From Abyssibacter sp. (GTDB lineage Bacteria > Pseudomonadota > Alphaproteobacteria > Rhodobacterales > Rhodobacteraceae), in assembly GCA_964220165.1 (NCBI GenBank), contig CAXPTW010000024.1:200843-264842 (forward strand): 64,000 nt of DNA, read 5' to 3'. Made by a program: the position numbers and the translations under genes. The notes beneath the pieces were generated by a model. That model had not been told where the DNA came from. It saw only the letters and a program-made list of their open reading frames with translations, and made no database searches. This document shows, one piece after another, positions 42,124-64,000 of the stretch (position 1 is the first letter of the stretch; every line of letters starts with the position of its first letter).

Positions 42124-43530
42124 ATGAAAAACGATACGTGGGGACGTGTTAAGCAGCAACTTCTCGAAAGCGTGGGACGTAACAACTACGCAAACTGGAT
42201 CGAGCCGCTGGAATTGAAAAAAGTCGATAATGGTGTGGCCGTATTCTCCGTGCCGACCAGCTTTATGGCAAACTGGGTGTCTCGAAACTTTGCGGATACG
42301 ATTCTCACCCATCTGAAAGCGGCGAACTCCGCGACCAACCGGGTCGAGTTCCTCGTTGAAGCCCAAGCGCCGCAACCTGCCGCGCAGACTGAGGCCGATA
42401 GCGCGTCTGCGCCCATGAAGTCTTCTGTGAAATCTCCTGTCAAATCGTCTGAAACCGTCGCCGTTGAGGCATCGACAGGCGAGGACAATCTGCCCGGTGC
42501 CCCGCTTGACCCGCGCTTTACCTTTGACAACTTTGTCGTCGGCAAGCCGAACGAACTGGCCCATGCCGCCGCGCGTCGCGTGGCCGAAGGGGGTCCCGTC
42601 ACCTTTAATCCGCTGTTTCTTTACGGCGGCGTTGGTCTCGGTAAAACCCACTTGATGCACGCCATCGCACATGAAATCCGGGAACGCAGCCCGGAGAAGA
42701 AGGTGCTGTATCTCTCGGCAGAACAGTTCATGTACCGGTTTGTTCAGGCGCTCCGTGACCGCCAGATGATCGACTTCAAACAGCTGTTTCGCTCTGTGGA
42801 TGTGCTTATGGTCGATGACGTTCAGTTCATCGCTGGCAAAGACAGCACGCAAGAAGAGTTCTTTCACACGTTCAACGCGCTTGTGGATCAGAACAAACAG
42901 ATCATCATCTCCGCCGACCGTGCGCCGGGTGAGATTCAAGGCCTCGAAGATCGGATCAAATCGCGTCTGCAATGCGGTCTGGTGGTTGACCTGCACCCGA
43001 CCGATTACGAGCTTCGGCTCGGCATCCTTCAGACCAAGGCCGAAGTGTACCGCGCCCAATATCCGGGCCTGAGCTTTGCTGACGGCGTGCTTGAATTCCT
43101 CGCGCACCGGATTTCCACCAACGTGCGCGTGCTCGAAGGGGCCTTGATGCGTCTCTTTGCCTTCGCGTCTCTCGTGGGGCGTGAAATCTCGCTCGATCTG
43201 ACCCAGGAATGTCTCTCCGACATCTTGAAAGCCTCCGAGCGTAAGGTCACCGTCGAGGAAATTCAGCGCAAAGTGTCGGAGCATTACGCCATCCGCCTCT
43301 CCGACATGATCGGCCCCAAGCGTGTGCGCTCCATCGCGCGTCCGCGTCAGGTGGCGATGTATTTGTCGAAACAGCTCACCGCGCGCTCCTTGCCAGAGAT
43401 TGGGCGGCGATTTGGCGGCCGCGACCATACCACAGTGATGCACGGGGTTCGCCGGATCGAAGAGCTAAAATCGACCGACAGCCAGATCGCGGATGACGTG
43501 GAAATGCTGCGCCGCGCGCTTGAGGCCTGA
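42124..43530 (+). CDS. dnaA: Chromosomal replication initiator DnaA
   Basis: AAA+ Walker A LFLYGGVGLGKTHLMHA, Walker B VLMVDDVQF and the C-terminal DNA-binding domain GGRDHTTVMHGVRRIEEL. I prefer ATG 42124 over GTG 42085. Confidence 0.95.
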   Translation: MKNDTWGRVKQQLLESVGRNNYANWIEPLELKKVDNGVAVFSVPTSFMANWVSRNFADTILTHLKAANSATNRVEFLVEAQAPQPAAQTEADSASAPMKSSVKSPVKSSETVAVEASTGEDNLPGAPLDPRFTFDNFVVGKPNELAHAAARRVAEGGPVTFNPLFLYGGVGLGKTHLMHAIAHEIRERSPEKKVLYLSAEQFMYRFVQALRDRQMIDFKQLFRSVDVLMVDDVQFIAGKDSTQEEFFHTFNALVDQNKQIIISADRAPGEIQGLEDRIKSRLQCGLVVDLHPTDYELRLGILQTKAEVYRAQYPGLSFADGVLEFLAHRISTNVRVLEGALMRLFAFASLVGREISLDLTQECLSDILKASERKVTVEEIQRKVSEHYAIRLSDMIGPKRVRSIARPRQVAMYLSKQLTARSLPEIGRRFGGRDHTTVMHGVRRIEELKSTDSQIADDVEMLRRALEA

Positions 43531-43705
43531 TCATCAGGCAAAATGAGTCTAATCTGCTGCACCGCCGCGACTTTCGTCATTGGCGGTGTTTGCGTCTCTT
43601 GACGAGACACCGGACAAACAACACAGTCCGGGGAAACAAACTATTGCGCCCGGCGGTGGATCGTTTACCTTTCTCCCCCCGGCCAGTGAGACATGCGAGG
43701 GTGGT

Positions 43706-44824
43706 ATGAAAATCAGCATCGAACGCGCGACGCTTTTGAAAGCTGTCGGTCAGGCGCAATCCGTTGTGGAGCGCCGGAACACCATTCCGATCCTTGCGAA
43801 TGTTTTGATCGAGGCAGAAGGCAACACTGTGTCCTTCCGTGCGACCGATCTCGACATCGAAGTGGTCGACAAATGTGCGGCCATGGTGGAGCGCGCAGGT
43901 GCGACCACGGTGTCGGCCGTAACGCTCCATGAGATTGTCCGCAAATTGCCCGACGGGGCGATGGTCCAGCTCACCGATGACGGTGCCAACGGTCGTCTGA
44001 CAGTGGAGGCCGGTCGATCGAACTTCTCTCTCGCGACCCTGCCGAAAGAAGATTTCCCGGTGATGGCCTCTGCGGAATACGACAGCAACTTTGCCGTCCC
44101 TGCCCCGGTTCTGCGCCGTTTGTTCGACAAGTCGAAATTCGCGATCTCGACCGAGGAAACCCGCTATTACCTGAACGGCGTCTACATGCATGTCTCAGAT
44201 AGCGAAAACGGCAAGGCGCTGCGCTGTGTCGCGACCGACGGTCACCGTTTGGCCCGGATCGACGCGCCGCTGCCCGCAGATGCGGGTGATATGCCTGGCG
44301 TCATCGTGCCGCGCAAAACCGTGGGTGAGCTGCGCAAACTTCTCGATGACGACGACATGACCATCGCCGTGTCCGTCTCTGAGGCGAAAGTGCGCTTCGC
44401 GACGCCGGACATCACACTCACCTCCAAGGTGATCGACGGCACCTTCCCGGATTACTCCCGCGTGATTCCGGTCGGCAACACGCGCCAGCTCGAAGTGGAC
44501 GCCGCCGAGTTCGCCAAGGCGGTCGACCGTGTGGCCACCGTATCCTCCGAGCGCTCCCGCGCGGTCAAACTGACGCTGGAAGAAGACAAACTCACGCTCT
44601 CCGTAAACGCACCCGATAGCGGGGCCGCGGAAGAAGAGTTGGCGGTTGCCTACAACGACGAACGCCTGGAGATCGGGTTCAACGCGAAATACCTCTTGGA
44701 AATCGCGTCTCAGGTGGACCGCGAAAATGCGGTGTTCTTGTTCAACTCCTCCGGCGATCCGACCCTGATGCGCGAAGGTGGCGACACCTCGGCGGTCTAT
44801 GTCGTTATGCCGATGCGGGTGTGA
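43706..44824 (+). CDS. dnaN: DNA polymerase III beta sliding clamp
   Basis: Start at ATG 43706 (MKISIERATLLKAVGQAQSVVERRNTIPILANVLIEA). 372 aa. Ends in ...VYVVMPMRV. Confidence 0.95.
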   Translation: MKISIERATLLKAVGQAQSVVERRNTIPILANVLIEAEGNTVSFRATDLDIEVVDKCAAMVERAGATTVSAVTLHEIVRKLPDGAMVQLTDDGANGRLTVEAGRSNFSLATLPKEDFPVMASAEYDSNFAVPAPVLRRLFDKSKFAISTEETRYYLNGVYMHVSDSENGKALRCVATDGHRLARIDAPLPADAGDMPGVIVPRKTVGELRKLLDDDDMTIAVSVSEAKVRFATPDITLTSKVIDGTFPDYSRVIPVGNTRQLEVDAAEFAKAVDRVATVSSERSRAVKLTLEEDKLTLSVNAPDSGAAEEELAVAYNDERLEIGFNAKYLLEIASQVDRENAVFLFNSSGDPTLMREGGDTSAVYVVMPMRV

Positions 44825-44858
44825 GTATTTTCGTCTGCAATGAATACAGAGAGATGCG

Positions 44859-45965
44859 ATGGGCGGCCTGTTCATAGAAGAGCTGAGCCTGTCGCATTTC
44901 CGCTCTCACAAGGCCGCGCGTTTGGAACTGGACGGGCGGCCTGTTGCTATTTGGGGCGAAAACGGCGCGGGCAAGACCAACATCCTTGAGGCGGTCTCAT
45001 TGTTGTCTCCCGGACGCGGCATGCGGCGGGCGGCGCCAGAAGAGATGGCGCGCAAGCCCGAGAACCTCGGCTGGAAAGTCCGTGCGGAGCTTCAGTCGCT
45101 GCATCAGTTTCATGAGGTTGAGACCACGGCTGAGCCGGGAGCCTCCCGAACGGTTCAGATTGACGGGAAAACCAGCGCGCAGATCGCGCTTGGGCGGATC
45201 GCGCGGGTGGTTTGGCTCATCCCGGCGATGGATCGGCTTTGGATCGAAGGGGCCGAAGGGCGACGGCGGTTTCTCGACCGGATGGTGATGTCATTCGAGC
45301 CGCGCCATGCGGAGAGCGTTTTGGCCTATGAAAAGGCCATGCGGGAACGCAATCGGCTGTTGAAAGACATGGTGAGGGACGCGCATTGGTATGCCGCGCT
45401 TGAGACGCAAATGGCGGAGCACGGTGCGGCGATGATGCGGCATCGTTTTGCCGCTTTGTTGCGTATTGCCGAGGCGCAGGACGGGGCAGAAACGGCCTTT
45501 CCTGCGGCGGAGCTGTCGCTCAAAGCCTCAGATGACAAGCCTTTGCCAGAAAGTGCAGAGGATCTCTTGGCTGCGTTTCGTGAGGGTCGGCCTCGTGACT
45601 TGGCGGCGGGGCGGACGCTTGTCGGACCGCACCGCGCCGATCTCGCCGCGATTTACACCAAAAAGGGCGTGCCTGCAGATCAATGTTCAACGGGCGAGCA
45701 AAAGGCGCTTTTGATCTCCCTTATTCTGGCCAATGGACGCGCTCTTGCCGAGGATTTTGGCGCGGCGCCGATTTATCTCCTCGATGAGGTGGCGGCCCAT
45801 CTTGACGCCGGACGCAGAGCCGCTCTTTATGACGAAATCTGTGCCTTGGGCGCGCAGGCGTTTATGACGGGAACCGGGCCGGAATTGTTCGCGGAGCTGG
45901 GCTCTCGGGCCGCACAATTCGAGGTGCAGGATGACGGTGGGCGATCCGTTGTGCGGGAACATTGA
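44859..45965 (+). CDS. recF: DNA replication and repair protein RecF
   Basis: 368 aa. Walker A GENGAGKTNILEA, SMC signature CSTGEQKALLISL and Walker B IYLLDEVAAHLD. Confidence 0.92.
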   Translation: MGGLFIEELSLSHFRSHKAARLELDGRPVAIWGENGAGKTNILEAVSLLSPGRGMRRAAPEEMARKPENLGWKVRAELQSLHQFHEVETTAEPGASRTVQIDGKTSAQIALGRIARVVWLIPAMDRLWIEGAEGRRRFLDRMVMSFEPRHAESVLAYEKAMRERNRLLKDMVRDAHWYAALETQMAEHGAAMMRHRFAALLRIAEAQDGAETAFPAAELSLKASDDKPLPESAEDLLAAFREGRPRDLAAGRTLVGPHRADLAAIYTKKGVPADQCSTGEQKALLISLILANGRALAEDFGAAPIYLLDEVAAHLDAGRRAALYDEICALGAQAFMTGTGPELFAELGSRAAQFEVQDDGGRSVVREH

Positions 45966-46586
45966 ATGACCATTACCTTTGGTGACTTGGGCCTCTATGG
46001 CTTTGCGCTTTTGATTCTGTTTTTGACGCCGGGGCCGGTGTGGCTTGCCGTTTTGGCACGGGGCCTTTCGAGCGGGTTTAGCGGTGTCTGGCCTCTGGCC
46101 CTCGGCGTCGTCATCGGGGATTTTATCTGGGCGCTCCTGGCCATTCTCGGCGTGTCGTGGTTCGTCTCGGAGTTTGACGGGTTTCTCACCGTGCTGCGCT
46201 GGGTCGCGACGGTGATGTTCGTGACCATGGGTATTCTGTTGATCCGCCATGCAGACAAGACCATCGCCTCAGACAGCCGCCTGACCCGACCGGGCATGGT
46301 GGCGGGGTTTGTTGCGGGGTTGATCTGTATCCTCGGCAACCCGAAAGCGATCCTGTTCTACATGGGATTCCTGCCGGGGTTTTTCGATCTGGGAACATTG
46401 AACCGCATGGATATTGCCGCGATTTGTCTCACCTCCGCGATCATTCCCCTGATCGGAAACCTGATACTAGGTGCCTCGATCGGCAAGCTCAGAAGCGTGA
46501 TGTCTTCGCCCAAAGCGCTGCGGCGTCTGAACATCTCGGCGGGCTGTTTGCTCATTTTCGTCGGGCTTGTACTTCCCTTCGTCTAA
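45966..46586 (+). CDS. LysE/RhtB-family amino-acid exporter
   Basis: 206 aa with six TM segments. The N-terminal LFLTPGPVWLAVL motif is typical of LysE translocators. Confidence 0.8.
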   Translation: MTITFGDLGLYGFALLILFLTPGPVWLAVLARGLSSGFSGVWPLALGVVIGDFIWALLAILGVSWFVSEFDGFLTVLRWVATVMFVTMGILLIRHADKTIASDSRLTRPGMVAGFVAGLICILGNPKAILFYMGFLPGFFDLGTLNRMDIAAICLTSAIIPLIGNLILGASIGKLRSVMSSPKALRRLNISAGCLLIFVGLVLPFV

Positions 46587-49103
<2,517 letters not shown>

Positions 49104-55295: not shown

Positions 55296-55922
55296 TTAGC
55301 TTGCGTCTTTGAACTCAGCGTAGTCGCCTCGGACCTTGATCGTGACCGTCACGTCGCTCTTGTCGCGGTTGCGCAGGAACCAGCCGTGGTCTCCGTCAAA
55401 CGCCGCGAGGATTGCGCCTTCGGTCCCTGTTGAACCGCGGCCCTTTTCATAGGTGGCCGACTGACCGGACCCATGACCGTGCAGATCGAAATTGACGCCA
55501 CCGCCCTCGACCGCCATACGGTATTGCGCGATCTGGCCTTCGGTCATGACCAGTTTCCATTCCGCAGACTCGCCGGGGGCGAGGGTCAGGGTGATCTCGT
55601 CCCGCCAGTCTTCTGTCGCCACCGCTTCTTGGGCATAGGCGGGTGTGATGAAGACCCCGAGGATCGTATCGAGCAGGCTCGACTGATCGTTTTCGAGCAT
55701 TTGGCGGTCGGCTTCGGCCTCGTCTGCCAGCTGGGTTTTGATATCGCCCATTTCGGTGAGGCCGATGGCCTTGCCGACACCCGTGGGGTCGATGCCGTAT
55801 TCGGCTGGGAGGACAACGGTCACGAGGATCGCGAGAGCGGCAAGGCCCGCGAGGACCGTGGATTTGAGAAGCTGTGCGGAGCTGGGCAGCTCATCGAGGC
55901 TCGGTTTTTGCGCGTTGAACAT
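55296..55922 (-). CDS. Membrane-anchored periplasmic protein, partner of the HupE/UreJ-like gene
   Basis: 208 aa with one N-terminal TM segment and a C-terminal beta-rich domain containing HGHGSG. Located 13 nt downstream of the HupE-like gene. Confidence 0.6.
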   Translation of the reverse strand: MFNAQKPSLDELPSSAQLLKSTVLAGLAALAILVTVVLPAEYGIDPTGVGKAIGLTEMGDIKTQLADEAEADRQMLENDQSSLLDTILGVFITPAYAQEAVATEDWRDEITLTLAPGESAEWKLVMTEGQIAQYRMAVEGGGVNFDLHGHGSGQSATYEKGRGSTGTEGAILAAFDGDHGWFLRNRDKSDVTVTIKVRGDYAEFKDAS

Positions 55923-55934
55923 GGGGTTAGCTCC

Positions 55935-56660
55935 TTATGTGGCCACAAAGTAGCCGGTGATCTGGTAGCCCATGAGGATGAAGCCCATGGACATCATGAT
56001 GACGTTGATGGTGTAGGCCTGACGCAGGAAATTCGGGGATTTGCGCCAATAGCCCATGACGATCAGGATGATGGCGAGTGCCATCAGCTGCCCGAGCTCG
56101 ACACCGACATTAAAGGCAATGAGATTGGCCCAAAGTCCGTCCGGCGCGATGTCAAAGTCAAGAATCTTGGTCGCCAGACCCGTGCCATGGAAAAAACCAA
56201 AGATCAGCGTGGCCAGTCTGGTGTTCGGCTGCACCCCAAACCAACGTTGAAAGGCCCCGAGGTTGTCGAGTGCCTTGTAGACCACCGACAGGCCGATAAT
56301 TGCGTCGATGAGATGAGCATTCACGCCCAAGCCGAGCCACACGCCCAAAAGCATCGTGGAGGAGTGGCCGAGGGCAAAGAGGCTTACATAGAGGCCAACT
56401 TCTTTCATTTTGTAGAGAAAAAAGACGACGCCGAGCAGGAACAGAATGTGGTCGTAGCCGGTGACCATATGCTTGGCCCCGAGATACATAAAGGGGACGA
56501 TGTTGACCCCCCAGATTTCCTGAATATAGCCCGCGTCGCCTTCCGTGACGTTGTGAGCGGTTGCGGCAGAAGCCCAGAGCGTCAGGACCGCGAGGAACAT
56601 TAGGATGGTCGAAATGCGTAAATTGCGACGCCAAACACCAACCGCGAAACCGGATTGCAT
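55935..56660 (-). CDS. HupE/UreJ-family membrane protein (putative Ni/Co or other metal transporter)
   Basis: Start at ATG 56660 (MQSGFAVGVW...), preceded by a GGAG SD. It has a signal/TM segment, then HNVTEGDAGY, GAKHMVTGYDHILFLLGVVFF and FGFFHGTGLA segments typical of the HupE_UreJ family. Confidence 0.75.
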   Translation of the reverse strand: MQSGFAVGVWRRNLRISTILMFLAVLTLWASAATAHNVTEGDAGYIQEIWGVNIVPFMYLGAKHMVTGYDHILFLLGVVFFLYKMKEVGLYVSLFALGHSSTMLLGVWLGLGVNAHLIDAIIGLSVVYKALDNLGAFQRWFGVQPNTRLATLIFGFFHGTGLATKILDFDIAPDGLWANLIAFNVGVELGQLMALAIILIVMGYWRKSPNFLRQAYTINVIMMSMGFILMGYQITGYFVAT

Positions 56661-56963: not shown

Positions 56964-56987
56964 TGGTGCCCAGAAGAGAAATCGAAC
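56964..56987 (-). other. 24-nt tRNA 3'-end remnant (T-loop to CCA); candidate att core of the adjacent island
   Basis: The minus strand reads GTTCGATTTCTCTTCTGGGCACCA, i.e. TTCGATT T-loop, TCTCT T-stem strand, TCTGGGC acceptor strand, then A and CCA. No complementary 5' half lies upstream, so it is not an intact tRNA gene. The acceptor sequence resembles tRNA-Leu, but this is tentative. Confidence 0.45.
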
Positions 56988-57120
56988 ACGCGTTTCACCT
57001 CATTCCAAGATGATCTTTTATCTATCTATTTTCATTACTTAAATAAAAATACCTGTACCGACCTATTCCATTTTAACCCGCCCTACCCCACATATTAGGG
57101 TGGACTCAGGGGTGGATAAA

Positions 57121-58275
57121 ATGACGAGGGAATTGAACAAGCTTTCGGCTCTTCAGATCAAAAATGCGCCACCGGGGAAGTACTCTGACGGCGGCGGATT
57201 GTGGCTGCACAAACGGGCCGATGGAGGTGGTCAGTGGTTCCTGCGGGTGACCATACACGGGCGTCGTCGCGAGATGGGGCTTGGGAGTCTGACCTATGTC
57301 ACACTCAAGGAAGCGCGCGAGGAAGCCAACCGGTGGCGCACCGTCGTGCGCAAAGGCAAAGATCCGATCAAGGAGCGGGACCGCGAGAGGCGTCTCGCGG
57401 CGCGGGCTGCGCCGACGCTCGAGATGGTCGCGCTGGAAGCTTTTGAGGCGCGCAAGGCCGAGCTCAAGAATGACGGCAAATCCGGTCGGTGGTTTTCGCC
57501 GCTGGAGCTGCATGTGCTGCCGAAGATCGAGCGCGTCCCTGTGGAAGAGATCGACCAGCAGGACATCAAGAACACGCTTGCCCCGATTTGGCATGAGAAA
57601 GCCGAGACGGCGCGCAAGGCGATGAACCGGCTGGGGATCGTGATGCGGCACGCGGCAGCCATGGGGCTTGATGTTGATATCCAGGCGACCGAGAAGGCAA
57701 AAGCCCTGCTTGGCAAATCCCGCCACAAGGCACAGCACGTTGCCGCGATGGACTGGCGCGAGGTGCCAGCCTTCTATGCGGGCCTCAATGAGGGATCAAT
57801 TACTCACCTCGCACTGCGGCTCTTGATCCTGACAGCTGCACGCTCCGGAGAGATCCGCTTCTGTCATCTCGACGAGATCGAGGGCGATGTTTGGACCTTG
57901 TCGTCAGAGCGCATGAAGACCGGCAACGAACATCGAATCCCGCTCTCGGCGGAGGCTCTCAAGGTCATCGAGCAAGCGAAGCCATTTGCGCGTGACGGCT
58001 TCCTGTTCCCGAGCGTGCGCAAGGGCGTCATCTCCGACGCCACCATGGCGCGCTACATGGAGCGCAAGGGGCTCGAGGCGCGGCCCCACGGGTTCCGCTC
58101 CAGTTTCCGCACCTGGTGTGCCGAAGAGACCGACACGCCACGCGAGGTGGCTGAGATGGCCCTGGCCCATATTGTTGGCGGAGCGGTCGAACGGGCGTAT
58201 CGTCGAACAGACTATCTCGATCAGCGGAGGGAGTTGATGGAGAAATGGGCGGCGCATGTGGGAGGTGAAACATGA
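57121..58275 (+). CDS. int: P4-type tyrosine integrase
   Basis: The N-terminal arm-binding region LSALQIKNAPPGKYSDGGGLWLHKRADGGGQWFLRVTIHGRRREMGLGS is the DUF4102-type P4 integrase signature. Catalytic residues are in LLILTAARSGE, HGFRSSFRTW and ...ERAYRRTDY. Confidence 0.9.
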   Translation: MTRELNKLSALQIKNAPPGKYSDGGGLWLHKRADGGGQWFLRVTIHGRRREMGLGSLTYVTLKEAREEANRWRTVVRKGKDPIKERDRERRLAARAAPTLEMVALEAFEARKAELKNDGKSGRWFSPLELHVLPKIERVPVEEIDQQDIKNTLAPIWHEKAETARKAMNRLGIVMRHAAAMGLDVDIQATEKAKALLGKSRHKAQHVAAMDWREVPAFYAGLNEGSITHLALRLLILTAARSGEIRFCHLDEIEGDVWTLSSERMKTGNEHRIPLSAEALKVIEQAKPFARDGFLFPSVRKGVISDATMARYMERKGLEARPHGFRSSFRTWCAEETDTPREVAEMALAHIVGGAVERAYRRTDYLDQRRELMEKWAAHVGGET

Positions 58276-59036
58276 GCAGCGAAATTGATGACGCGAACTC
58301 AAGCTCTAGGCAGGACCCTGTCGGTCTCTGGCAAGAGATCGTTGGCGACCCCCTGATAAACGCTCTCAAATGGATTGACCTATGGCGCAAGGAAGCGACT
58401 GGGGGTCGAACGAGAGAGCTCACATATCAAGAGTTCTGTTTTCGCGCGAACGGCCACCTGACATTTGATGGGAAAGTCTATCGCCTTACCGAGGGCCTTG
58501 CGGAGGTCATCGCCCAGATGGGGAGCGAAGGACTCATAAGGGCTGATAGCAAAACTGCGTTAGCCAAGAATCTCGTCCCTGTGCCGGCTCTTCACTACGA
58601 GTTGGCCCGTCACATCGCGCGGACGAATCGTGCCGTGGGATTGGAACTACCTAAGAGTTTAAGGGTCTATGCCGATGACACAGCGCAAGATCTCCAACGT
58701 GGCAAGGGTGGAGATCAAGAGAAGCGCATTCTCTTCCGACATCTCGCGTGGTGGGCCACAGACCGAGCCGTAAAGCTAGGGCTTAAGGTTGATAGAAGCC
58801 GAGCCTCGAATGAGGCAACTCAATGTGCGGCCCAACTCGTCGCGGACGCATTCTTTGCCGCGAGCCTTGGCAATGAGTTCACATACAATTCGGTGATTGC
58901 CGCCTGGGAGGCGCATAGACACACAGGTAGCGACCAGAGGAAATTAAAAATCAAAATCCACAACGCGGCCTATCAACGGCATTTTTTCGAGCTTGATGAA
59001 TTGGTTGGCAAACTATCTCTGTTTGAAACGCGCTAA
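58272..59036 (+). CDS. Hypothetical protein, translationally coupled to int
   Basis: 254 aa. ATGA overlap with the int stop. No TM segment and no recognisable motif. Confidence 0.6.
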   Translation: MSSEIDDANSSSRQDPVGLWQEIVGDPLINALKWIDLWRKEATGGRTRELTYQEFCFRANGHLTFDGKVYRLTEGLAEVIAQMGSEGLIRADSKTALAKNLVPVPALHYELARHIARTNRAVGLELPKSLRVYADDTAQDLQRGKGGDQEKRILFRHLAWWATDRAVKLGLKVDRSRASNEATQCAAQLVADAFFAASLGNEFTYNSVIAAWEAHRHTGSDQRKLKIKIHNAAYQRHFFELDELVGKLSLFETR

Positions 59037-59096
59037 TCCTCAAACGCCTCTCTATTCGTTCTGTACGACCTGAGCAGACCTCATGTGCTCAAACGA

Positions 59097-59118
59097 CTCC
59101 AATTGAAATTGATTGGAG
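59097..59118 (+). promoter_or_regulatory. Inverted repeat CTCCAAT-N8-ATTGGAG covering the alpA Shine-Dalgarno
   Basis: Read from the sequence. The right arm contains the GGAG located 7 nt upstream of ATG 59126. Confidence 0.3.
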
Positions 59119-59125
59119 CAGCACG

Positions 59126-59311
59126 ATGCACCTACTGACCCTGAATGATCTGCGCGCAGTCCTCGGGAATCGAGGACGGACCACCATCTATCGCGACGTT
59201 GCCGCCGGGCGGCTTCCCGAGCCGATCAAGATTGGTGGCCGGATCTATTGGCGTGAGGACGACATCGAAGCTGCTTTGACCGCGCTCAAAGGAGACAAAA
59301 ATGCTGACTAA
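59126..59311 (+). CDS. alpA: AlpA-family HTH regulator / excisionase-like protein
   Basis: 61 aa. The pattern LTLNDLRAVLGNRGRTTIYRDVAAGRLPEPIKIGGRIYWREDDIEAAL is the AlpA/Phage_AlpA (MerR-like excisionase) pattern. Its 3' end overlaps the next ORF's start. Confidence 0.8.
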   Translation: MHLLTLNDLRAVLGNRGRTTIYRDVAAGRLPEPIKIGGRIYWREDDIEAALTALKGDKNAD

Positions 59312-62300
59312 GGATACCATCTTCCGCCTCTCGACCTTTTGCAAAGCCGATGGTCCGCTTAGCAAGTCCATCGCGCTTGGAGACGATGGTCAGCCGCACT
59401 CAAACGCGGATGACTGCAGAATGTCGCATGGCACCGCAATGAACTTCGGTTTCCAGAACCTGACGGAACTCGCGGATCATATCAACGATCTGGATAGTGT
59501 TCATGCGCTCTCGCTGGGCACGATTGACGGTCAAGACGACAATGAGCTTGTGAGGCTTGTGACGGAGGCCAGGCTCACAGCCTATGGCGATGCGATTGCT
59601 CGAACCAAAGAATACTTTGCCTTCGAGGAGGGAGAGCCAGGCTTGCTTCTCATCGACTTCGACAAAAAGGGGATTTCTCCAGAAATCCTTGAGAGGATCG
59701 AAGCGGCAGGAGGTCTCTGGGCTGTTCTTTGCGAGGTCTTCCCGGACCTCATACAGGCTGGGTATATCCGGAGGGCCTCGACCTCGGCCGGCCTTTACAA
59801 CTCGGAGACCGGGGAAAAATTTCCTGGATCCGGAGGCGAGCATATCTACCTGGCGGTTCAAGACGCCTCAGACATCCCTCGTGCAACAAAGGTGTTGCAC
59901 CAACGGCTTTGGTTGGCCGGATTGGGATGGATCTGGATTGGACGCATCGGACAATTGCTGGAGCGGTCAGTCATCGACCAGTCGGTCGGCTCGCCGGAAC
60001 GGTTGGTGTTTGAAGGCGCCCCCGTCCTGGAACCGCCCCTTGCACAGTCACAAAAAGCCCGTCGTGCTATCGCCGTTGAGGGGCGGTTGATTGATAGCAA
60101 AGCGGTGTTTCCCGATCTCACGCAACAGGAGGGCGCGCGGTATCGGGCCAAGGTTCAAGCCGAAAAAGCGGCTTTGAAACCAGAGGCGAAGACCCGCCAA
60201 TCCCGCGCAGACAAGGGCTTGGCAAAGAAACTCGCGCGCCGCTCTGGCCTCACGGATGAACAAGCTCGCGCTCAAATCAGCCGGCGTCATCAGGGCGAGC
60301 TTTTGCCCCTACACCCGCTCGAGTTCGATGATCGCGCGTTGGGGAAGGTCACAGTCGGCGACGTTCTTATGGATCCGGATCGCTTCATTGAGCAGACGCT
60401 TGCGGACCCGCTCGAAGGCGTTGGGTACGGGCGCTGCAAGGCGAAACTCTTCAGACGGCCCGATGGCTCGCTTTGGATCAACTCCTTTGCGCATGGCGGT
60501 GCGCAGTATGACCTCCGTCATGATGCCGGCTCCGTTCGCGCGGCGCTTGAAGGCCTGGAGAGGGAGACAAACCCGAACGATATCGTCGCGGCCTTGGCGT
60601 CGGCGCATCTTGAGACTAGCGAAGAGGAGGAATTGCTTCGCGCCATAAAGGACGCGACAGGAGTGACCCTGGGTGAGCTGCGCACATTGCTGAAACGCGC
60701 GAAGCGCTTCCGCTCCAACGTTCGGCGCTCGGACGCAAACACGCGACTGGCAGAGGAAGACCCTCGCGTCGCTCTGCCAGCACCGGCCGCAAGTGCAGAA
60801 CTGACCGATGTCGTGACGCAGATTGACGAGATCCTCGGGAACGTAGTCGCTGATATCCCGCCCTTCCGGACGCTTGCGTCTCAACTGGCGTACGTCGATC
60901 GCCGCCCACCAAGCAAGCTGCATCAATTGGTCTCGGAAGGAGAGGAACAGCCTCCAGCACCAGATCAGCTCACAATCCAGGTTGCCGGAGAACCCGAGGC
61001 GACGATGATGATTGAAGAGCATATCCGGTTCGAAATTGAAAACGATGAAGACAGCATGCAATCCGCACCCAAGCGCCTGTCACTGCCGTTTGTCAGAGCC
61101 TATATGGGGTGGAAAGAGTCGCAACTTCCGAGGGTTCGAGGAATATCGACACTACCTCTCGTCCTGCCCGGAGGCGTGTTAAAGGCCATGCAAGGTCTAG
61201 ACCGAGAACTGGAACTCATCTTTGAGCTCGATGAAGAGTTGGTCAGACGGCTCGAGAAGACACATGCGGTGTCACTTCAGGAGGCGAAAAAAGCCTATGA
61301 CTGGCTCCTGAACAACTGGTTGGTTGACGTGGACGCAACTGAGGAAGGTAAGGCGATCGTCATCGCGCTTGCGCTGACGGTGATCGAAAGACACCTTCTG
61401 GCCGAGTTCCCTGCGTTCTTCGTCTCCGCGGCGCAGAGAGGAAGTGGCAAAACCACCGTCATCAACATGATCTCGACGGCGTTGAGCGGTGTCATGGCGT
61501 CAGCCGCCTCTTGGTCCTTCGATGAGGAGGAACGGCGCAAGGCGATCTTCTCGTACCTTCGTGAAGGCTCGCCTTTGGTGACCTATGACAACATTCCACG
61601 CGGGTCCGCGATAAGCTGCCCGACGCTCGAGCGCGTCCTGACAGCGCCCGAACTAAAGGATCGCGTTCTCGGCGAAAATCGAACGGAAACGGTGCCAGCT
61701 TCCACCGTGATTGCGTTTACAGGCAACAACATTCACCCGAAAGGAGACATGGCCTCACGTTCGCTGGTTGCGAACCTCGTGTCGGATCGAACCGATCCGG
61801 AAAATCGGGAGTTCGAGCATGAGGACCCGATCGGTTGGACACGAGAAAATCGCAACGCGATCCTGCAGCGCCTGTATCAGATCCTGCTGCTCGCACGTGA
61901 CAAGCCGAACCGATCCAAAACACGGTTCAAAACGTGGTGGAATTTGATCGGCCATCCCTTGGAGATGATCTCCGGGGTGGATTTTGAGGATCTGTTCCGC
62001 GCCAACGATGTCTTCGATGAGGAGGCCCAGGGAGCTGCGGAGTTTATCAGCCTCATGAAAAGGTACCTCGAGATGGACGGCAAATGTAGTCGTGAGTTCT
62101 CGGCATCTGAGGTAGCCAAACTTGCTGATGACAAGTGGCATGGCTCAGGTTCTCGATCCGCAGACCCAAACGAGCCAGACCCCTCTGCGCTCAAGTCGGC
62201 GCTCGAGGCGGCCAGTGGGCGGCCGTTCTCCGGCGGAACGGTGACCGCACATCGTGTGGCGCGCAAGCTTGCCGCCATCGAGGACCGCCCTGTGGAGGTG

Positions 62301-62375
62301 GACGGCCAGATGCTTCAACTGAAAGTCATCCGAGACCACGAAGGAAACCGGTACAGGATTGAACAGCTCGGTTGA
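59301..62375 (+). CDS. Putative replication protein: AEP (prim-pol)-like N-terminal domain fused to SF3/P4-family P-loop helicase domain
   Basis: 1024 aa with an AAGGAGA SD. Motifs seen: IDFD (aa 117-120), GSGGEHIYLAV (aa 176-186), VIDQSV (aa 224-229), Walker A AQRGSGKTTV (aa 711-720), Walker B-like LVTYDN (aa 759-764) and AFTGNNIHPKGDMASRSLV (aa 805-823), which resembles the P4/D5 primase-helicase C-terminal domain. Confidence 0.6.
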   Translation: MLTKDTIFRLSTFCKADGPLSKSIALGDDGQPHSNADDCRMSHGTAMNFGFQNLTELADHINDLDSVHALSLGTIDGQDDNELVRLVTEARLTAYGDAIARTKEYFAFEEGEPGLLLIDFDKKGISPEILERIEAAGGLWAVLCEVFPDLIQAGYIRRASTSAGLYNSETGEKFPGSGGEHIYLAVQDASDIPRATKVLHQRLWLAGLGWIWIGRIGQLLERSVIDQSVGSPERLVFEGAPVLEPPLAQSQKARRAIAVEGRLIDSKAVFPDLTQQEGARYRAKVQAEKAALKPEAKTRQSRADKGLAKKLARRSGLTDEQARAQISRRHQGELLPLHPLEFDDRALGKVTVGDVLMDPDRFIEQTLADPLEGVGYGRCKAKLFRRPDGSLWINSFAHGGAQYDLRHDAGSVRAALEGLERETNPNDIVAALASAHLETSEEEELLRAIKDATGVTLGELRTLLKRAKRFRSNVRRSDANTRLAEEDPRVALPAPAASAELTDVVTQIDEILGNVVADIPPFRTLASQLAYVDRRPPSKLHQLVSEGEEQPPAPDQLTIQVAGEPEATMMIEEHIRFEIENDEDSMQSAPKRLSLPFVRAYMGWKESQLPRVRGISTLPLVLPGGVLKAMQGLDRELELIFELDEELVRRLEKTHAVSLQEAKKAYDWLLNNWLVDVDATEEGKAIVIALALTVIERHLLAEFPAFFVSAAQRGSGKTTVINMISTALSGVMASAASWSFDEEERRKAIFSYLREGSPLVTYDNIPRGSAISCPTLERVLTAPELKDRVLGENRTETVPASTVIAFTGNNIHPKGDMASRSLVANLVSDRTDPENREFEHEDPIGWTRENRNAILQRLYQILLLARDKPNRSKTRFKTWWNLIGHPLEMISGVDFEDLFRANDVFDEEAQGAAEFISLMKRYLEMDGKCSREFSASEVAKLADDKWHGSGSRSADPNEPDPSALKSALEAASGRPFSGGTVTAHRVARKLAAIEDRPVEVDGQMLQLKVIRDHEGNRYRIEQLG

Positions 62376-62396
62376 GCGAAGGTCAAAGTGAAACTG

Positions 62397-62430
62397 GCGC
62401 ACCCGGGCTTGCCTGGGTGCGCTTTTGTTT
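62397..62430 (+). terminator. Rho-independent terminator after the primase-helicase gene
   Basis: GCGCACCC(GGG)-CTTG-(CCT)GGGTGCGC stem followed by TTTTGTTT, starting 22 nt after the stop. Confidence 0.7.
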
Positions 62431-62433
62431 GGG

Positions 62434-62556
62434 CGTCGGGATTGTCGGGATCCAAACTGCCGCCCGCGCAGGCCTCAAAAAAATTAGAACTAAGAGATAT
62501 ATTTTATTTTTTTTCCACATTTTAGAAGGAGGATATCAATCCCGACAATCCCGACG
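62434..62556. repeat. 18-bp perfect inverted repeat (four GTCGGGAT octamers, two per arm) flanking an 87-bp AT-rich spacer; candidate island replication origin
   Basis: CGTCGGGATTGTCGGGAT at 62434-62451 and its exact reverse complement ATCCCGACAATCCCGACG at 62539-62556. The spacer contains CAAAAAAATTAGAACTAAGAGATATATTTTATTTTTTTTCCACATTTTAGAAGGAGGATAT. Confidence 0.5.
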
Positions 62557-62705
62557 GGGGTGTATGATTGACGCGCATCAGTGCCTTGGTACCCTCTCCG
62601 CAGCAGGAACGGCTTGCTGAAGGTGGGCCGCGAAGTGGGCCCACAACTGAGCGGATGTGCAGTGTCACAAACACCGAAAAAAAATCGTCAAAAACTCTTC
62701 AGTAT

Positions 62706-62718
62706 GTTATATTATAAC
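62706..62718. promoter_or_regulatory. AT-rich palindrome GTTATA-T-TATAAC upstream of the Zn-ribbon ORF (promoter/operator candidate)
   Basis: Read from the sequence. It lies 23 nt upstream of ATG 62741 and contains a TATAAT-like hexamer on both strands. Confidence 0.3.
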
Positions 62719-62740
62719 AAATGATTTCGAGGATGAGCAC

Positions 62741-63346
62741 ATGCCCCCGCGTTCAAAGAGACCACTGGCCGATACGATGCTGCAACTGAGCATTCGACAG
62801 GTTGTCGAGGCTGGACTGCTGAATGACAAAGGCATCGTCTCGATCGCCAAAACACCCCAGGGCTTGGACTTCCCTGCCATCGTTGATGGTCATGGCGACT
62901 ATTTGATCATTACCGTGCATGGCGGCTGGGGGAACACATGTGAGGCTGTCGCAGTGACCGAGACCCCCTGTCACTTTGGCGGGACGCGCCATTGGTTCCT
63001 TTGTCCCTCCTGCGCGCGCCAGTGTGGGGTGCTTTACATCGGGCGTGAAGCGATCGCCTGCCGCACATGTCATGACCTCGCCTATGCGTCTCAATACGAG
63101 GCTCCGCGGGAGCGCATGCTGCGGCAGCTCAAGAAAATCCGCAAAGCCATCGGGGCCGACATGGACATCTACGGCCCGTTCAACCCGCCCCCAAAAGGCA
63201 TGTCGAAGAAGAGATGGCTGGAGATGATCGAGGAGTTCGAGGCCCTGCGTGCGGCCTATTGGCACGAGTGTGAGCGCCCTCGCATGTGGCGCAATGATGC
63301 GCCGAAGACGAGCGAGTTCCGGAAAGGTGGTTCTTCTGCGTCTTAG
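62741..63346 (+). CDS. Hypothetical protein with four-Cys zinc ribbon
   Basis: Start at ATG 62741 (MPPRSKRPL...), with a GAGGA SD 7 nt upstream. Zinc ribbon in CHFGGTRHWFLCPSCARQCGVLYIGREAIACRTCHDLAYASQYE (CxxC...CxxC). The track's 5' extension to 62657 crosses the AT-rich promoter-like region. Confidence 0.65.
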   Translation: MPPRSKRPLADTMLQLSIRQVVEAGLLNDKGIVSIAKTPQGLDFPAIVDGHGDYLIITVHGGWGNTCEAVAVTETPCHFGGTRHWFLCPSCARQCGVLYIGREAIACRTCHDLAYASQYEAPRERMLRQLKKIRKAIGADMDIYGPFNPPPKGMSKKRWLEMIEEFEALRAAYWHECERPRMWRNDAPKTSEFRKGGSSAS

Positions 63347-63579
63347 CGAGACGTGTCCGCCGATGTTCTCGAGGTGAGCCCTGCCCAGCGCGCCACTTGC
63401 CAGATCCCGCGGATCGGCCTACGATTCCCCCTGCATCAAGAGAAAGGCTCCGGCCTTCACCAACCTGCTCAACCCGGCAAGGTGGTCTCCCGCAAGGGGA
63501 TGCGGTCGGACCGACAACGAATGGGCAGACCTCATCAACGACCTCAACCCCTGGCCGGTCTCAACACGGAGATCGAACA

Positions 63580-64000
63580 ATGGAACGTCGACAATTTCTC
63601 ATTTCATCAGTGGCCCTCGGAGTTGGCGCCACCGCGACCCCGCTCTCAAGCGAGGCGGCGCCTACCCTTCCGCTGCAACGCGGACTGCGCAAGCGCACCC
63701 TCTATCTGGAACCCCGATCAAATGGCGAGTTTCTGCTCTACAGCGATGGTCCGCGCGAGCCGCGCAAACTCATCCGATCGGAGGCCATCGACGCGCGGTT
63801 CGGAAAAGGCACCCACCATTTCCTGCTCCAGCCCGACCACTGGGCCATGATCGACGCAGGTTGGTTTGGGGACGAAGACCTCTATAGCATCGAGCAAGGA
63901 CACGAGCGCGAGCTAGAGATCTGGGGCGACTACTATCGCGCCGAATGTGAGGCCTTCGACCTCCTCAGAACGCTGTTCGACGGGCGGGTCGACGGGTTCT
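63580..64000 (+). CDS. Partial CDS with twin-arginine (Tat) signal peptide; 3' end outside window
   Basis: Absent from the ORF track because there is no stop in the window. My translation gives MERRQFLISSVALGVGATATPLSSEAAPTLPLQRGLRKRTLYLEPRSNGEFLLYSDGP...WAMIDAGWFGDEDLYSIEQGHERELEIWGDYYRAECEAF with no stop through 64000. A GGAG SD lies 8 nt upstream. Confidence 0.5.
   Translation, partial: MERRQFLISSVALGVGATATPLSSEAAPTLPLQRGLRKRTLYLEPRSNGEFLLYSDGPREPRKLIRSEAIDARFGKGTHHFLLQPDHWAMIDAGWFGDEDLYSIEQGHERELEIWGDYYRAECEAFDLLRTLFDGRVDGF

What the first reader, a model, noticed from the sequence alone, without database searches (positions are those of the whole stretch)
56964..64000. Left end of an integrated P4/PICI-like element: tRNA remnant, int, coupled orphan ORF, alpA, primase-helicase, ori-like module
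Housekeeping synteny ends after the hupE-like gene. At 56964-56987 the minus strand reads GTTCGATTTCTCTTCTGGGCACCA. That is the T-loop, 3' T-stem strand, acceptor strand, discriminator and CCA of a tRNA. There is no matching 5' half: the T-stem partner would be GCGTG, and no GCCCAGA acceptor strand is present. So this is a 24-nt tRNA 3' remnant, as expected for an att core. About 100 bp of very AT-rich DNA follows (57000-57095), with a GGGTGGA direct repeat at 57098 and 57110. After that comes a co-directional module: P4-type int, a 254-aa unknown ORF coupled to int, an AlpA-type HTH, a 1024-aa prim-pol/SF3-helicase candidate, a terminator, an iteron-like inverted repeat around an AT-rich core, a Zn-ribbon ORF and a Tat-signal ORF. 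The combination int + alpA + pri/rep + ori directly after rep is the established layout of phage P4 and of Gram-negative phage-inducible chromosomal islands. No capsid, tail or conjugation genes appear in the visible 7 kb. One oddity is that the tRNA remnant next to int is in the opposite orientation to the canonical arrangement, where an intact tRNA is followed by int. That implies the intact tRNA sits at the far end. The cargo region, where such elements often carry defence or accessory systems, lies beyond the window.
Basis: partly seen in the sequence, partly recalled or inferred. Interest (0 to 1): 0.75.

Follow-up and report, generated by a model that had tools for sequence, protein, structure and literature searches.

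The report
Replicating integrative island at tRNA-like site
This is the left part of an intact, recently mobile genomic island in a marine Rhodobacteraceae chromosome that carries its own integrase, excision regulator, primase-helicase and replication origin. It is an ordinary kind of element, though its replicase family is unannotated and it carries an unexpected SAM riboswitch.

Summary

The 1024-aa protein is an AEP primase fused to an SF3 helicase. This rests on a PHROG primase hit, intact catalytic motifs and fold matches to ASFV PrimPol, PriRep1 and the SaPI5 primase-helicase.

The inverted repeat is an iteron origin. 40 of 69 relatives carry period-9 inverted arms just after the gene, against 8 of 200 coding control windows, and the unit sequence differs between loci.

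A 91-93% identical copy lies at another chromosomal site in Celeribacter litoreus. Homology starts inside the T-loop of the 24-mer, so this is a real attachment junction.

The window's 24-mer matches no genuine tRNA. No partner copy or intact tRNA appeared within 13.5 kb here or 33 kb in C. litoreus.

No capsid, packaging or hijack genes were found, and relatives carry long, varied cargo. 'P4/PICI-like' therefore fits the layout but not membership; cargo-carrying replicative islands of the tycheposon type are closer.

The parts
56964..56987 (-). 24-nt tRNA-3'-like block (G53, T-loop, T-stem 3' strand, acceptor 3' strand, A73, CCA); outer edge of the element's attachment junction
   Evidence: Sequence read and unique in the window. 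Homology with the C. litoreus copy starts at 56984, inside the T-loop. Equivalent blocks are present in L169, L002, L091 and L178. It matches a Rhodobacteraceae tRNA-Phe 3' end at 19/24. The 21-mer has 0 exact matches in the GTDB genomes.
56988..57120 (+). Attachment-site arm between core and int: A+T-rich, with CTGTACC/CTATTCC boxes at 57053 and 57063 and GGGTGGA boxes at 57098 and 57110 (candidate integrase arm sites or int operator)
   Evidence: Both pairs of boxes are conserved in position in five elements whose integrases are 79-98% identical.
57121..58275 (+). P4-type tyrosine integrase (384 aa)
   Evidence: Pfam Arm-DNA-bind_3, Phage_int_M and Phage_integrase; phrog_1 integrase at E=1.4e-45. 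It is 98.4% identical to the C. litoreus integrase.
58272..59036 (+). 254-aa gene overlapping the int stop codon; fast-evolving slot gene of unknown function
   Evidence: No Pfam, PHROG, NCBIfam, PADLOC or PDB match. Only 9 representatives in 1.84 billion proteins. The C. litoreus copy has a non-alignable 212-aa allele here. Slot genes of relatives are only distantly related to one another.
59126..59311 (+). AlpA-type HTH (61 aa), probable excision/activation regulator
   Evidence: Pfam HTH_17 at E=2.5e-7. phrog_66 'excisionase and transcriptional regulator'. Relatives at the same position hit PF05930 Phage_AlpA.
59301..62375 (+). 1024-aa replication protein: N-terminal AEP primase-polymerase, C-terminal SF3 (D5-like) helicase
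   Evidence: phrog_16593 'DNA primase' over residues 17-373 at E=1.7e-39, plus phrog_19930. Invariant D119/D121/H181/D226 and GKTT 716-719, D763, TGN 807-809. AF2 model pLDDT 86.9. Foldseek matches to ASFV PrimPol, NrS-1, PriRep1, the SaPI5 primase-helicase and MPOX E5, and to phage primase-helicases.
62396..62423 (+). Intrinsic terminator of the int-to-helicase operon
   Evidence: 12-bp stem with 9 G-C pairs, followed by a T-rich tail.
62434..62556 (.). Iteron-type origin: two inverted 18-nt arms (each 2 x TCGGGAT at 9-nt period) around an 87-nt spacer of 63% A+T
   Evidence: The same architecture with different unit sequences lies directly after the gene in 40 of 69 relatives, against 8 of 200 coding control windows.
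62741..63346 (+). 201-aa Zn-ribbon protein (CPSC...CRTC), conserved backbone partner of unknown function
   Evidence: Sequence. Homologues lie in L169 (92%), L089 (64%, directly after the origin), L091 (56%) and L178 (28%, next to the Tat ORF homologue). A promoter-like site is at 62685-62713.
63397..63425 (+). Promoter-like site (TTGCCA-17-TACGAT) directly before the riboswitch
   Evidence: this is a consensus match only.
63428..63531 (+). SAM-I/IV riboswitch aptamer
   Evidence: Rfam RF01725 at 65 bits against a gathering score of 41.1, E=2.7e-9, full length. It is conserved before the same gene in L169 (65.3 bits) and L178 (66.9 bits). Both hits show compensatory changes in P1 and in the 3' hairpin.
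63580..64000 (+). Tat-signal ORF (199 aa; ends at window-equivalent 64179) under the riboswitch; function unknown
   Evidence: The full ORF was read from L001 7613-8212. The twin arginines are invariant in 5 homologues. The family is tiny, 5 clusters. AF2 pLDDT is 71.5 and no fold match has E<1.

Best explanation
Window 56964 to beyond 64000 is the conserved backbone of an intact, recently mobile integrative genomic island in a Rhodobacteraceae chromosome, probably Celeribacter.

**Proposed mechanism.**
- A P4-type tyrosine integrase recombines the element at the T-loop of a tRNA or tRNA-like site. This leaves a displaced 3'-end block at the int-proximal edge.
- The AlpA-type HTH drives excision and activation.
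- The excised circle is replicated by its own AEP-primase/SF3-helicase. This protein is proposed to bind the 9-nt iterons in the two inverted arms and to open the A+T-rich spacer immediately downstream of its gene.
- The 7.2-kb backbone has no packaging or conjugation genes, so transfer must depend on a helper: a phage, a gene transfer agent or a conjugative system.
- Variable cargo follows the backbone.

**Shown.** Gene identities, protein fold and motifs, the junction position, a second copy at another locus, and conservation of the origin architecture.

**Inferred.** The recombination point, iteron binding, the excision role of AlpA, and helper dependence.
For: **Integrase and regulator.** The AlpA/excisionase assignment rests.

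**Replicase.** The PHROG primase hit, invariant AEP and SF3 motifs and a confident model with primase-helicase fold matches all agree.

**Origin.** Period-9 inverted iteron arms around 62-126-nt spacers occur after the gene in 40 of 69 relatives, against 8 of 200 control windows. Unit sequences differ between loci.

**Mobility.** A copy in C. litoreus, at an unrelated chromosomal site, is 91-93% identical in DNA and 98.4% identical in integrase. Homology starts inside the T-loop at window 56984.

**Attachment site.**
- Five elements of this integrase subfamily carry a TGGTGC-N14-G[A/C]A[C/T] block plus conserved arm boxes.
- Other subfamilies lie directly downstream of intact tRNA-Ser, Met, Pro or Cys genes.

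**Cargo in relatives.**
- Metal resistance in L002.
- ABC transporters in L091.
- NACHT, an AAA_21+UvrD pair, SRA/SNase and a second integrase in C. litoreus.

**No transfer machinery.** No capsid, packaging or conjugation domain was found in the backbone.
Against: - The right end was not reached. No second copy of the 24-mer and no tRNA lies within 13.5 kb of the junction in L001, nor within 33 kb in C. litoreus. Boundaries and size are therefore unknown.
- The window's 24-mer is not a real tRNA end and breaks the G53-C61 pair.
- Two integrases that are 98% identical abut quite different tRNA-like blocks. A strictly site-specific enzyme would not be expected to do this.
- L002 lacks the origin repeat.
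- Excision, replication and transfer are all untested.
Confidence: 0.72

Rival explanations
1. It is a true phage satellite of the P4 or PICI type. A helper phage induces it, it replicates, and it is packaged into helper capsids. The hijack genes would lie in the unannotated ORFs (the 254-aa slot gene, the Zn-ribbon protein or the Tat ORF) or beyond the window.
For: The order int, alpA, primase-helicase, then ori directly after rep is that of Gram-negative PICIs and SaPIs. Fold matches include the SaPI5 primase-helicase and PriRep1. The slot gene next to int is swapped between otherwise 91-93% identical copies, as would be expected of a helper-specificity determinant. Marine virion-encapsidated elements with integrase, AlpA and primase/helicase are reported from Alphaproteobacteria (PMC9618062). 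Six relatives lie in IMG/VR contigs.
Against: No terS, capsid, psu/sid/delta, ppi or cpm homologue was found in 13.5 kb. int + AlpA + primase alone is rated inconclusive by the SatelliteFinder authors (PMC10085698). IMG/VR hits are very rare compared with metagenome hits. Relatives extend more than 15.7 kb (L089, L144) and more than 33 kb (C. litoreus) without a second junction. That is larger than typical satellites, although tandem arrays could explain it.
Confidence: 0.2
2. It is an integrative mobilisable element that moves by conjugation. The primase-helicase maintains the excised circle, and a co-resident or linked type IV system transfers it.
For: In the C. litoreus copy, a TraG/TrwB-type coupling protein gene and large helicase genes lie about 25-33 kb to the right of the junction. 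The C-terminal half of the replicase resembles prim-pol proteins of actinomycete integrative or small plasmids.
Against: No relaxase, oriT or coupling protein lies in the conserved 7.2-kb backbone or in L001. The T4CP region in C. litoreus lies beyond a second integrase and may belong to another element. No full-length relative of the replicase is present on 72,556 plasmids.
Confidence: 0.15
3. The 24-mer is not tRNA-derived. The integrase targets a short non-tRNA core (TGGTGC ... GAAC), and the tRNA-like look in the window is coincidental.
For: The relaxed pattern occurs about 0.9 times per 64 kb by chance. The 21-mer is absent from 185,579 genomes. T at position 61 breaks the T-stem. L002 and L091 lack a canonical T-loop at that place. 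Integrases that are 98% identical abut different blocks. The Rfam tRNA model gives no partial hit.
Against: The C. litoreus block, GTTCAAGTCCCTCCACCCGCACCA, is a fully canonical tRNA 3' end with a Leu-type T-loop. All five blocks keep the 24-nt spacing and end in GCACCA. The rest of the element family sits at intact tRNA genes. The homology break falls exactly at the T-loop.
Confidence: 0.15
4. It is a fixed, decayed remnant that no longer moves.
For: The 24-mer is degenerate, and no partner repeat was found within reach.
Against: All backbone ORFs are intact and the replicase catalytic motifs are preserved. A 91-93% identical copy lies at a different locus in another species. The origin arms are a perfect 18/18 match.
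Confidence: 0.05

Closest known systems
Gram-negative phage-inducible chromosomal islands (EcCICFT073 type) and SaPI replication modules (SaPI5 primase-helicase, PDB 7ola; PriRep1, PDB 7pds)
   Same: Same co-directional order: integrase, AlpA-type regulator, primase-helicase, then an origin immediately 3' of the replicase gene. The origin is built from short iterons flanking an A+T-rich segment.
   Different: No packaging, capsid-redirecting or interference genes were found, and no master repressor was recognised. The replicase shows no detectable sequence similarity to solved PICI/SaPI proteins; only the fold matches. The host is an alphaproteobacterium. Relatives carry long metabolic, metal-resistance or defence cargo.
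Satellite phage P4
   Same: A P4-type integrase with an arm-binding N-domain, AlpA, a large primase-helicase, an iteron origin, and integration at a tRNA 3' end. The C. litoreus copy abuts a Leu-type tRNA end, and P4 uses leuX (own knowledge).
   Different: No psu, delta, sid or epsilon equivalents were found. The primase domain here is AEP type (DxD/H motifs), whereas P4 alpha has a different primase fold (own knowledge, not tested here). The tRNA-like block faces away from int, rather than an intact tRNA preceding int.
Tycheposons (Hackl et al., bioRxiv 10.1101/2020.12.28.424599), the cargo-carrying type
   Same: An inward-facing tyrosine integrase at one end, with a small excision and primase/helicase module next to it and variable adaptive or defence cargo beyond. 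The element is associated with tRNA genes and partial tRNA copies. Tandem or older remnants are plausible at the same site.
   Different: Tycheposons were described in Prochlorococcus and are defined by lineage-specific hallmark gene families, whose homology to this element was not tested. The integrase here is of the P4 type.
Marine virion-encapsidated integrative mobile elements (VEIMEs; PMC9618062)
   Same: Marine, found in Alphaproteobacteria among other hosts, and encode integrase, AlpA and DNA primase/helicases.
   Different: VEIMEs are defined by recovery from virus particles. This family is nearly absent from IMG/VR, and nothing shows encapsidation.

Membership tests
P4-like satellite (SatelliteFinder model, seven core components; PMC10085698) | [quoted passage not shown] | tested here: met
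   Pfam and PHROG hits and fold matches. The primase is AEP type, so it is a functional analogue and not shown to be a homologue of P4 alpha.
P4-like satellite (SatelliteFinder model, seven core components; PMC10085698) | Capsid-size and helper-control genes (psu, delta, sid, epsilon; names from own knowledge) | tested here: not met
   No PHROG, Pfam or NCBIfam hit of this kind to any ORF in window 56964-64000 or in L001 up to window-equivalent 70467. Genes further right could not be read.
PICI (Gram-negative type) | int + alpA + pri-rep with ori next to rep | tested here: met
   By itself this corresponds to the 'Type C' class that PMC10085698 treats as inconclusive.
PICI (Gram-negative type) | Packaging or hijack module (terS, capsid morphogenesis, interference genes) | tested here: not met
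   None detected in 13.5 kb, nor in the backbone of the C. litoreus copy.
PICI (Gram-negative type) | Induction by and packaging into a helper phage | not testable with these tools
   Needs experiments. The only indirect data are 6 IMG/VR loci against at least 499 metagenome loci.
tRNA-targeting integrative island | Intact tRNA at one end and a direct repeat of its 3' part at the other | tested here: inconclusive
   One tRNA-3'-like block lies at the left junction. No partner and no tRNA were found within 13.5 kb here or 33 kb in C. litoreus. Other subfamilies have an intact tRNA next to int.
Tycheposon | [quoted passage not shown] | tested here: met
   Layout, compared with the definition in 10.1101/2020.12.28.424599.
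Tycheposon | Lineage-specific integrase and hallmark gene families | not tested
AEP primase / SF3 helicase fusion (ASFV C962R, NrS-1, PriRep1 class) | AEP DxD and H motifs; Walker A, Walker B and motif C (TGN) of SF3; matching fold | tested here: met
   Invariant D119, D121, H181, D226, G716-K717-T718-T719, D763 and T807-G808-N809 in 32 homologues. Foldseek probability 1.00 to 8iqi, 6k9e, 7pds and 7ola. No sequence-level PDB hit.
SAM-I/IV riboswitch (Rfam RF01725) | Score above the curated threshold over the full model; conservation with compensatory changes upstream of the same gene | tested here: met
   65, 65.3 and 66.9 bits against a gathering score of 41.1. P1 changes from G-C to A-U and the 3' hairpin from U-A to C-G between the window and L178. 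Ligand binding was not tested.

The most novel reading that the evidence does not exclude
The conserved unit of Zn-ribbon gene, SAM-I/IV riboswitch and Tat-exported protein is part of the element's own life cycle rather than random cargo. The riboswitch would keep the exported protein off at normal SAM levels and switch it on when SAM collapses. That could happen when an infecting phage expresses a SAM lyase, or under methionine starvation. A mobile island would then have a metabolite-based infection or stress sensor. In parallel, the fast-swapping gene overlapping int could set helper specificity, making this a new alphaproteobacterial satellite family, possibly exploiting roseophages or gene transfer agents.
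Probability: 0.1. Interest if true: 0.8.

Novelty: new member of a known kind. Interest (0 to 1): 0.45.

Why it matters
**The replicase family.** The finding gives a function to a large, unannotated protein family. It has at least 810 members of about 1040 aa, nearly all labelled 'hypothetical' and without Pfam domains. They are replication initiators of tRNA-associated islands in Alphaproteobacteria, including Bradyrhizobium, Methylocystis and marine Rhodobacteraceae. Each has a cognate iteron origin that can be read directly from the sequence.

**Practical uses.** This offers a marker for finding such islands and their cargo, which includes metal resistance, transporters and anti-phage systems. 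It also offers a set of naturally orthogonal replicase/origin pairs.

**The riboswitch.** Its association with an exported protein of unknown fold on a mobile element is unusual. It gives a direct experimental handle on that gene's role.

Tried and rejected
- **Exact search for the 21-mer and 24-mer.** TGCCCAGAAGAGAAATCGAAC in 185,579 species genomes and the 24-mer in IMG/VR gave 0 hits. The source genome is not in those collections, and the block is not a real tRNA end.
- **Empty-site search through the HupE protein**. It returned 80 loci, but none is syntenic on either side. The hupE/208-aa pair is itself a mobile cassette, so no empty site could be defined.
- **Extending the window rightwards.**
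  - Exact-protein look-ups gave only a 14.5-kb Logan contig, L001, reaching window-equivalent 70467.
  - The NCBI 289-kb contig that holds these proteins is not on record.
  - Contigs from sister samples break inside hupE.
- **Walking 33 kb rightwards in C. litoreus** found neither a tRNA nor a repeat.
- **Far-end repeats in eight relatives that start at an intact tRNA.** None was found within up to about 16 kb.
- **Direct-repeat search in L001.** It found only chance-level short repeats. A GGGCACCA 8-mer at L001 9693 is inverted and at chance level.
- **Rfam tRNA model on the two 24-mers.** No partial hit; the blocks are too short to score.
- **Sequence searches of the replicase against PDB,** with a single sequence and with a profile, gave nothing. 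Only the fold search worked.
- **PADLOC on the slot genes, Zn-ribbon, Tat ORF and nuclease-like ORF** gave nothing.
- **PDB sequence search for the 254-aa and Zn-ribbon proteins** gave nothing significant.
- **Fold search of the Tat ORF model** gave no match with E<1.
- **Literature search for SAM riboswitches on mobile elements** found nothing relevant.

Full report
**1. The observation.**

- The minus strand of 56964-56987 reads GTTCGATTTCTCTTCTGGGCACCA. It is unique in the window.
- ARAGORN finds no tRNA in the window.
- 57000-57095 is 66.7% A+T, against 41.7% overall.
- GGGTGGA occurs at 57098 and 57110.

The ORFs are as follows.

| Feature | Coordinates | Note |
|---|---|---|
| int | 57121-58275 | |
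| 254-aa ORF | 58272-59036 | overlaps the int stop in ATGA |
| 61-aa HTH | 59126-59311 | |
| 1024-aa ORF | 59301-62375 | |
| Zn-ribbon ORF | 62741-63346 | |
| Twin-arginine signal ORF | from 63580 | runs off the window |

A strong terminator lies at 62396-62423. A perfect 18-nt inverted repeat, 62434-62451 and 62539-62556, flanks 87 nt of 63% A+T.

On sequence alone the 24-mer is not significant. A relaxed T-loop-to-CCA pattern is expected about 0.9 times per 64 kb. Its significance comes from comparison with relatives (section 4).

**2. Gene identities.**

The integrase has the P4-type architecture, Arm-DNA-bind_3 + Phage_int_M + Phage_integrase. The small HTH matches HTH_17 and the PHROG 'excisionase and transcriptional regulator'. 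Its counterparts in relatives match Phage_AlpA.

The 1024-aa protein has no Pfam, NCBIfam or PDB sequence match. Other evidence identifies it:
- Its N-terminal 370 residues hit a PHROG annotated as DNA primase at E=1.7e-39, and its C-terminal part hits primase/polymerase PHROGs.
- An alignment of 32 homologues shows the AEP motifs invariant: D119-x-D121, H181 and D226. The SF3 helicase motifs are also invariant: GKTT 716-719, D763 and TGN 807-809.
- The AlphaFold model is confident, with mean pLDDT 86.9.
- Its best PDB fold matches are ASFV PrimPol, the NrS-1 helicase region, PriRep1, the SaPI5 primase-helicase and MPOX E5.
- In BFVD it matches phage primase-helicases.

The family is large, with at least 810 members of about 1040 aa. 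Nearly all are labelled hypothetical, and they come from Alphaproteobacteria such as Bradyrhizobium, Methylocystis and Stellaceae. No full-length relative is found on 72,556 plasmids or 50,697 phage genomes; only single-domain matches appear.

**3. The origin.**

Each arm of the inverted repeat is two TCGGGAT units at a 9-nt period. Relatives show the same design:
- L003, whose replicase is 57% identical, has CGGGAT-type arms around 74 nt.
- Bradyrhizobium, at 39% identity, has the same architecture with a different unit (GGGGAAAG) around 84 nt.

I scanned the first 350 nt after the replicase stop codon for inverted arms of at least 14 nt, with at most 2 mismatches and a 40-130-nt spacer. 40 of 69 loci had them, against 8 of 200 control windows inside the gene. 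Most arms have an internal 9-nt period. The unit sequences differ widely, for example TGCGAAGTG, GGCCTATTG, GGTTTGCGG and CGGGAAAGA.

A conserved architecture with locus-specific repeat sequence, placed directly after the replicase gene, is what is expected of an iteron origin read by its cognate initiator. SaPIs have the same arrangement. Binding and firing remain inferred.

**4. The junction.**

A Logan contig (L001) carries the identical element and extends to window-equivalent 70467. A copy in Celeribacter litoreus (L169) is 93% identical in DNA over int and 91.6% identical from alpA to the end of the Tat ORF. Its integrase is 98.4% identical. It lies at an unrelated chromosomal site.

Homology begins at window 56984, inside the GAAC of the T-loop. 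In C. litoreus the block outside that point is GTTCAAGTCCCTCCACCCGCACCA, a fully canonical tRNA 3' end with a Leu-type T-loop.

Three more elements (L002, L091, L178) have integrases 79-83% identical to the window's. They carry a 24-nt TGGTGC...G[A/C]A[C/T] block at the same place. It is followed by conserved CTGTTCCA-like and GGGTGGA box pairs before int.

Other subfamilies of the same element family start directly downstream of intact tRNA genes: Ser-GGA, Ser-TGA, Met, Pro-TGG or Cys. The 24-mer therefore marks a genuine attachment junction whose crossover lies at the T-loop.

**5. What does not fit.**

- The window's block is not a real tRNA end. It has T at position 61, where G53 needs C, and its 21-mer is in none of 185,579 species genomes.
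- Its best resemblance is 19/24 to a Rhodobacteraceae tRNA-Phe.
- Integrases that are 98% identical abut quite different blocks.
- No partner copy and no tRNA was found within 13.5 kb here. None was found within 33 kb in C. litoreus. None was found within up to about 16 kb in eight relatives that begin at an intact tRNA.

The simplest reading is that the window copy entered a decayed tRNA-like pseudo-site, perhaps left by an older island, or that the islands are long or composite. The source contig is not retrievable.

**6. Surroundings.**

The window carries dnaN, recF and gyrB at 43.5-49 kb, so this is the chromosome near its origin. To the left of the element lie a glycosyltransferase, pgm, a 208-aa membrane protein and hupE.

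The hupE/208-aa pair recurs at about 70-84% identity in 79 of 80 other genomes without pgm. These include Vibrio and a Klebsiella plasmid contig. Assemblies of sister samples break inside hupE. 'Housekeeping synteny' therefore already ends before hupE.

**7. Backbone and cargo.**

The shared backbone of the two close copies is 7.2 kb, window 56984 to about 64158.

The gene between int and alpA is a fast-evolving slot. The window's 254-aa protein has only 9 representatives among 1.84 billion proteins. It is replaced in C. litoreus by a 212-aa protein with no DNA similarity. The slot proteins of relatives are only distantly related to one another.

Beyond the backbone the content differs between copies:

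| Copy | Content beyond the backbone |
|---|---|
| Window (L001) | A nuclease-like ORF and polysaccharide-type genes; it is unresolved whether these are cargo or flank |
| C. litoreus | SRA/SNase, an AAA_21+UvrD pair, a second integrase, a NACHT protein, then a coupling protein |
| L002 | Metal-resistance genes |
| L091 | ABC transporter genes between the replicase and the Zn-ribbon gene |

No capsid, packaging, tail or conjugation domain occurs in the backbone. PADLOC recognises none of the unknown ORFs.

**8. The riboswitch.**

A full-length SAM-I/IV aptamer (RF01725) lies at 63428-63531. It scores 65 bits against a threshold of 41.1. It sits just after a promoter-like site and 49 nt before the Tat ORF start.

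It is conserved before the same gene in C. litoreus. It is also conserved in L178, where the protein is only 48% identical and the replicase is a different, VapE-like protein. L178 shows compensatory changes in P1 (G-C to A-U) and in the 3' hairpin (U-A to C-G).

A Zn-ribbon homologue lies next to it there too. The Tat ORF family is tiny, with 5 clusters, and its twin arginines are invariant. It has no fold match. The riboswitch-gene unit thus travels with these elements, and its role is unknown.

**9. Comparison with known systems.**

The layout equals that of Gram-negative PICIs, P4 and SaPI replication modules. The defining hijack and packaging components were looked for and not found. int + AlpA + primase alone is explicitly rated inconclusive by the SatelliteFinder authors (PMC10085698). 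The family is almost absent from IMG/VR, with 6 loci against at least 499 in JGI metagenomes.

The closest functional analogue is the cargo-carrying, tRNA-associated replicative island. Examples are tycheposons (10.1101/2020.12.28.424599) and, more loosely, marine VEIMEs (PMC9618062).

I file it as a new member of a known kind. It is a helper-dependent integrative island with its own replicon, and its transfer route is undetermined.

**10. Verdict.**

| Item | Verdict |
|---|---|
| Observation | Confirmed |
| Interpretation | Partly supported: right on anatomy and mobility, unproven on P4/PICI membership and on the far-end tRNA |
| Interest | 0.45 |

The interest comes mainly from three things: the unannotated replicase family with readable cognate origins, the swapping slot gene, and the mobile SAM riboswitch unit.

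Noticed in passing
window 63428-63531 (+), with the ORF from 63580: A full-length SAM-I/IV riboswitch (65 bits against a gathering score of 41.1) lies inside the island, upstream of the Tat-signal ORF. It is conserved with compensatory changes in two related elements. The regulated protein belongs to a 5-cluster family with no known fold.
   Followed up: yes
window 55296-56660 (-): The hupE (HupE_UreJ_2) gene and the adjacent 208-aa membrane protein form a two-gene cassette. It recurs at about 70-84% identity in 79 of 80 other genomes, including Rhodobacteraceae, Vibrio, Photobacterium and a Klebsiella plasmid contig, without the neighbouring pgm. Two copies lie on one Sulfitobacter contig, and Logan contigs from sister samples break inside hupE. 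It looks like mobile or accessory DNA rather than housekeeping.
   Followed up: partly
window 58272-59036 (+); L169 9044-9682; L178 5602-6297; L091 1378-2196: The gene overlapping the int stop codon is swapped for a non-alignable allele between two copies that are otherwise 91-93% identical. The slot proteins of relatives are only distantly related (E from 4e-30 to 0.02). This pattern suggests diversifying selection or cassette exchange.
   Followed up: partly
L169 14951-21551 and L170/L177 (Celeribacter litoreus JAIUFY010000014.1): Directly after the shared backbone the C. litoreus copy carries several cargo genes: an SRA_ScoMcrA protein, an SNase, an AAA_21 'ATP-dependent nuclease' next to a UvrD helicase (a Gabija-like pair), a second tyrosine recombinase and a 1342-aa NACHT protein. 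Further on lie a TraG/TrwB-type coupling protein and an AAA_11/12 helicase.
   Followed up: partly
L002 21596-21809: A cobalamin riboswitch (106 bits) precedes cbtB/cbtA-like genes about 8.5 kb downstream of the related element's replicase gene in L002. It lies beyond a block of copper and metal-resistance genes.
   Followed up: no
window 43580-49103: dnaN, recF, a LysE-type exporter and gyrB show that the window lies next to the chromosomal replication origin region. A 481-aa ORF at 42085-43530 is in the position expected for dnaA but was not checked.
   Followed up: partly
L178 2939-7447 (-): An element whose integrase is 83% identical to the window's, and which has the same arm boxes, uses a different replication protein: a 772-aa VapE-like protein instead of the 1024-aa family. 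Replication modules are therefore exchanged between otherwise related backbones.
   Followed up: no
L001 8773-9366 (window-equivalent 64740-65333): A 197-aa membrane-anchored ORF has weak PHROG endonuclease hits (E about 0.004). It follows the backbone in the window copy only. It is unclear whether it, and the sulfotransferase, flippase-like and DUF354 genes after it, are cargo or chromosomal flank.
   Followed up: partly
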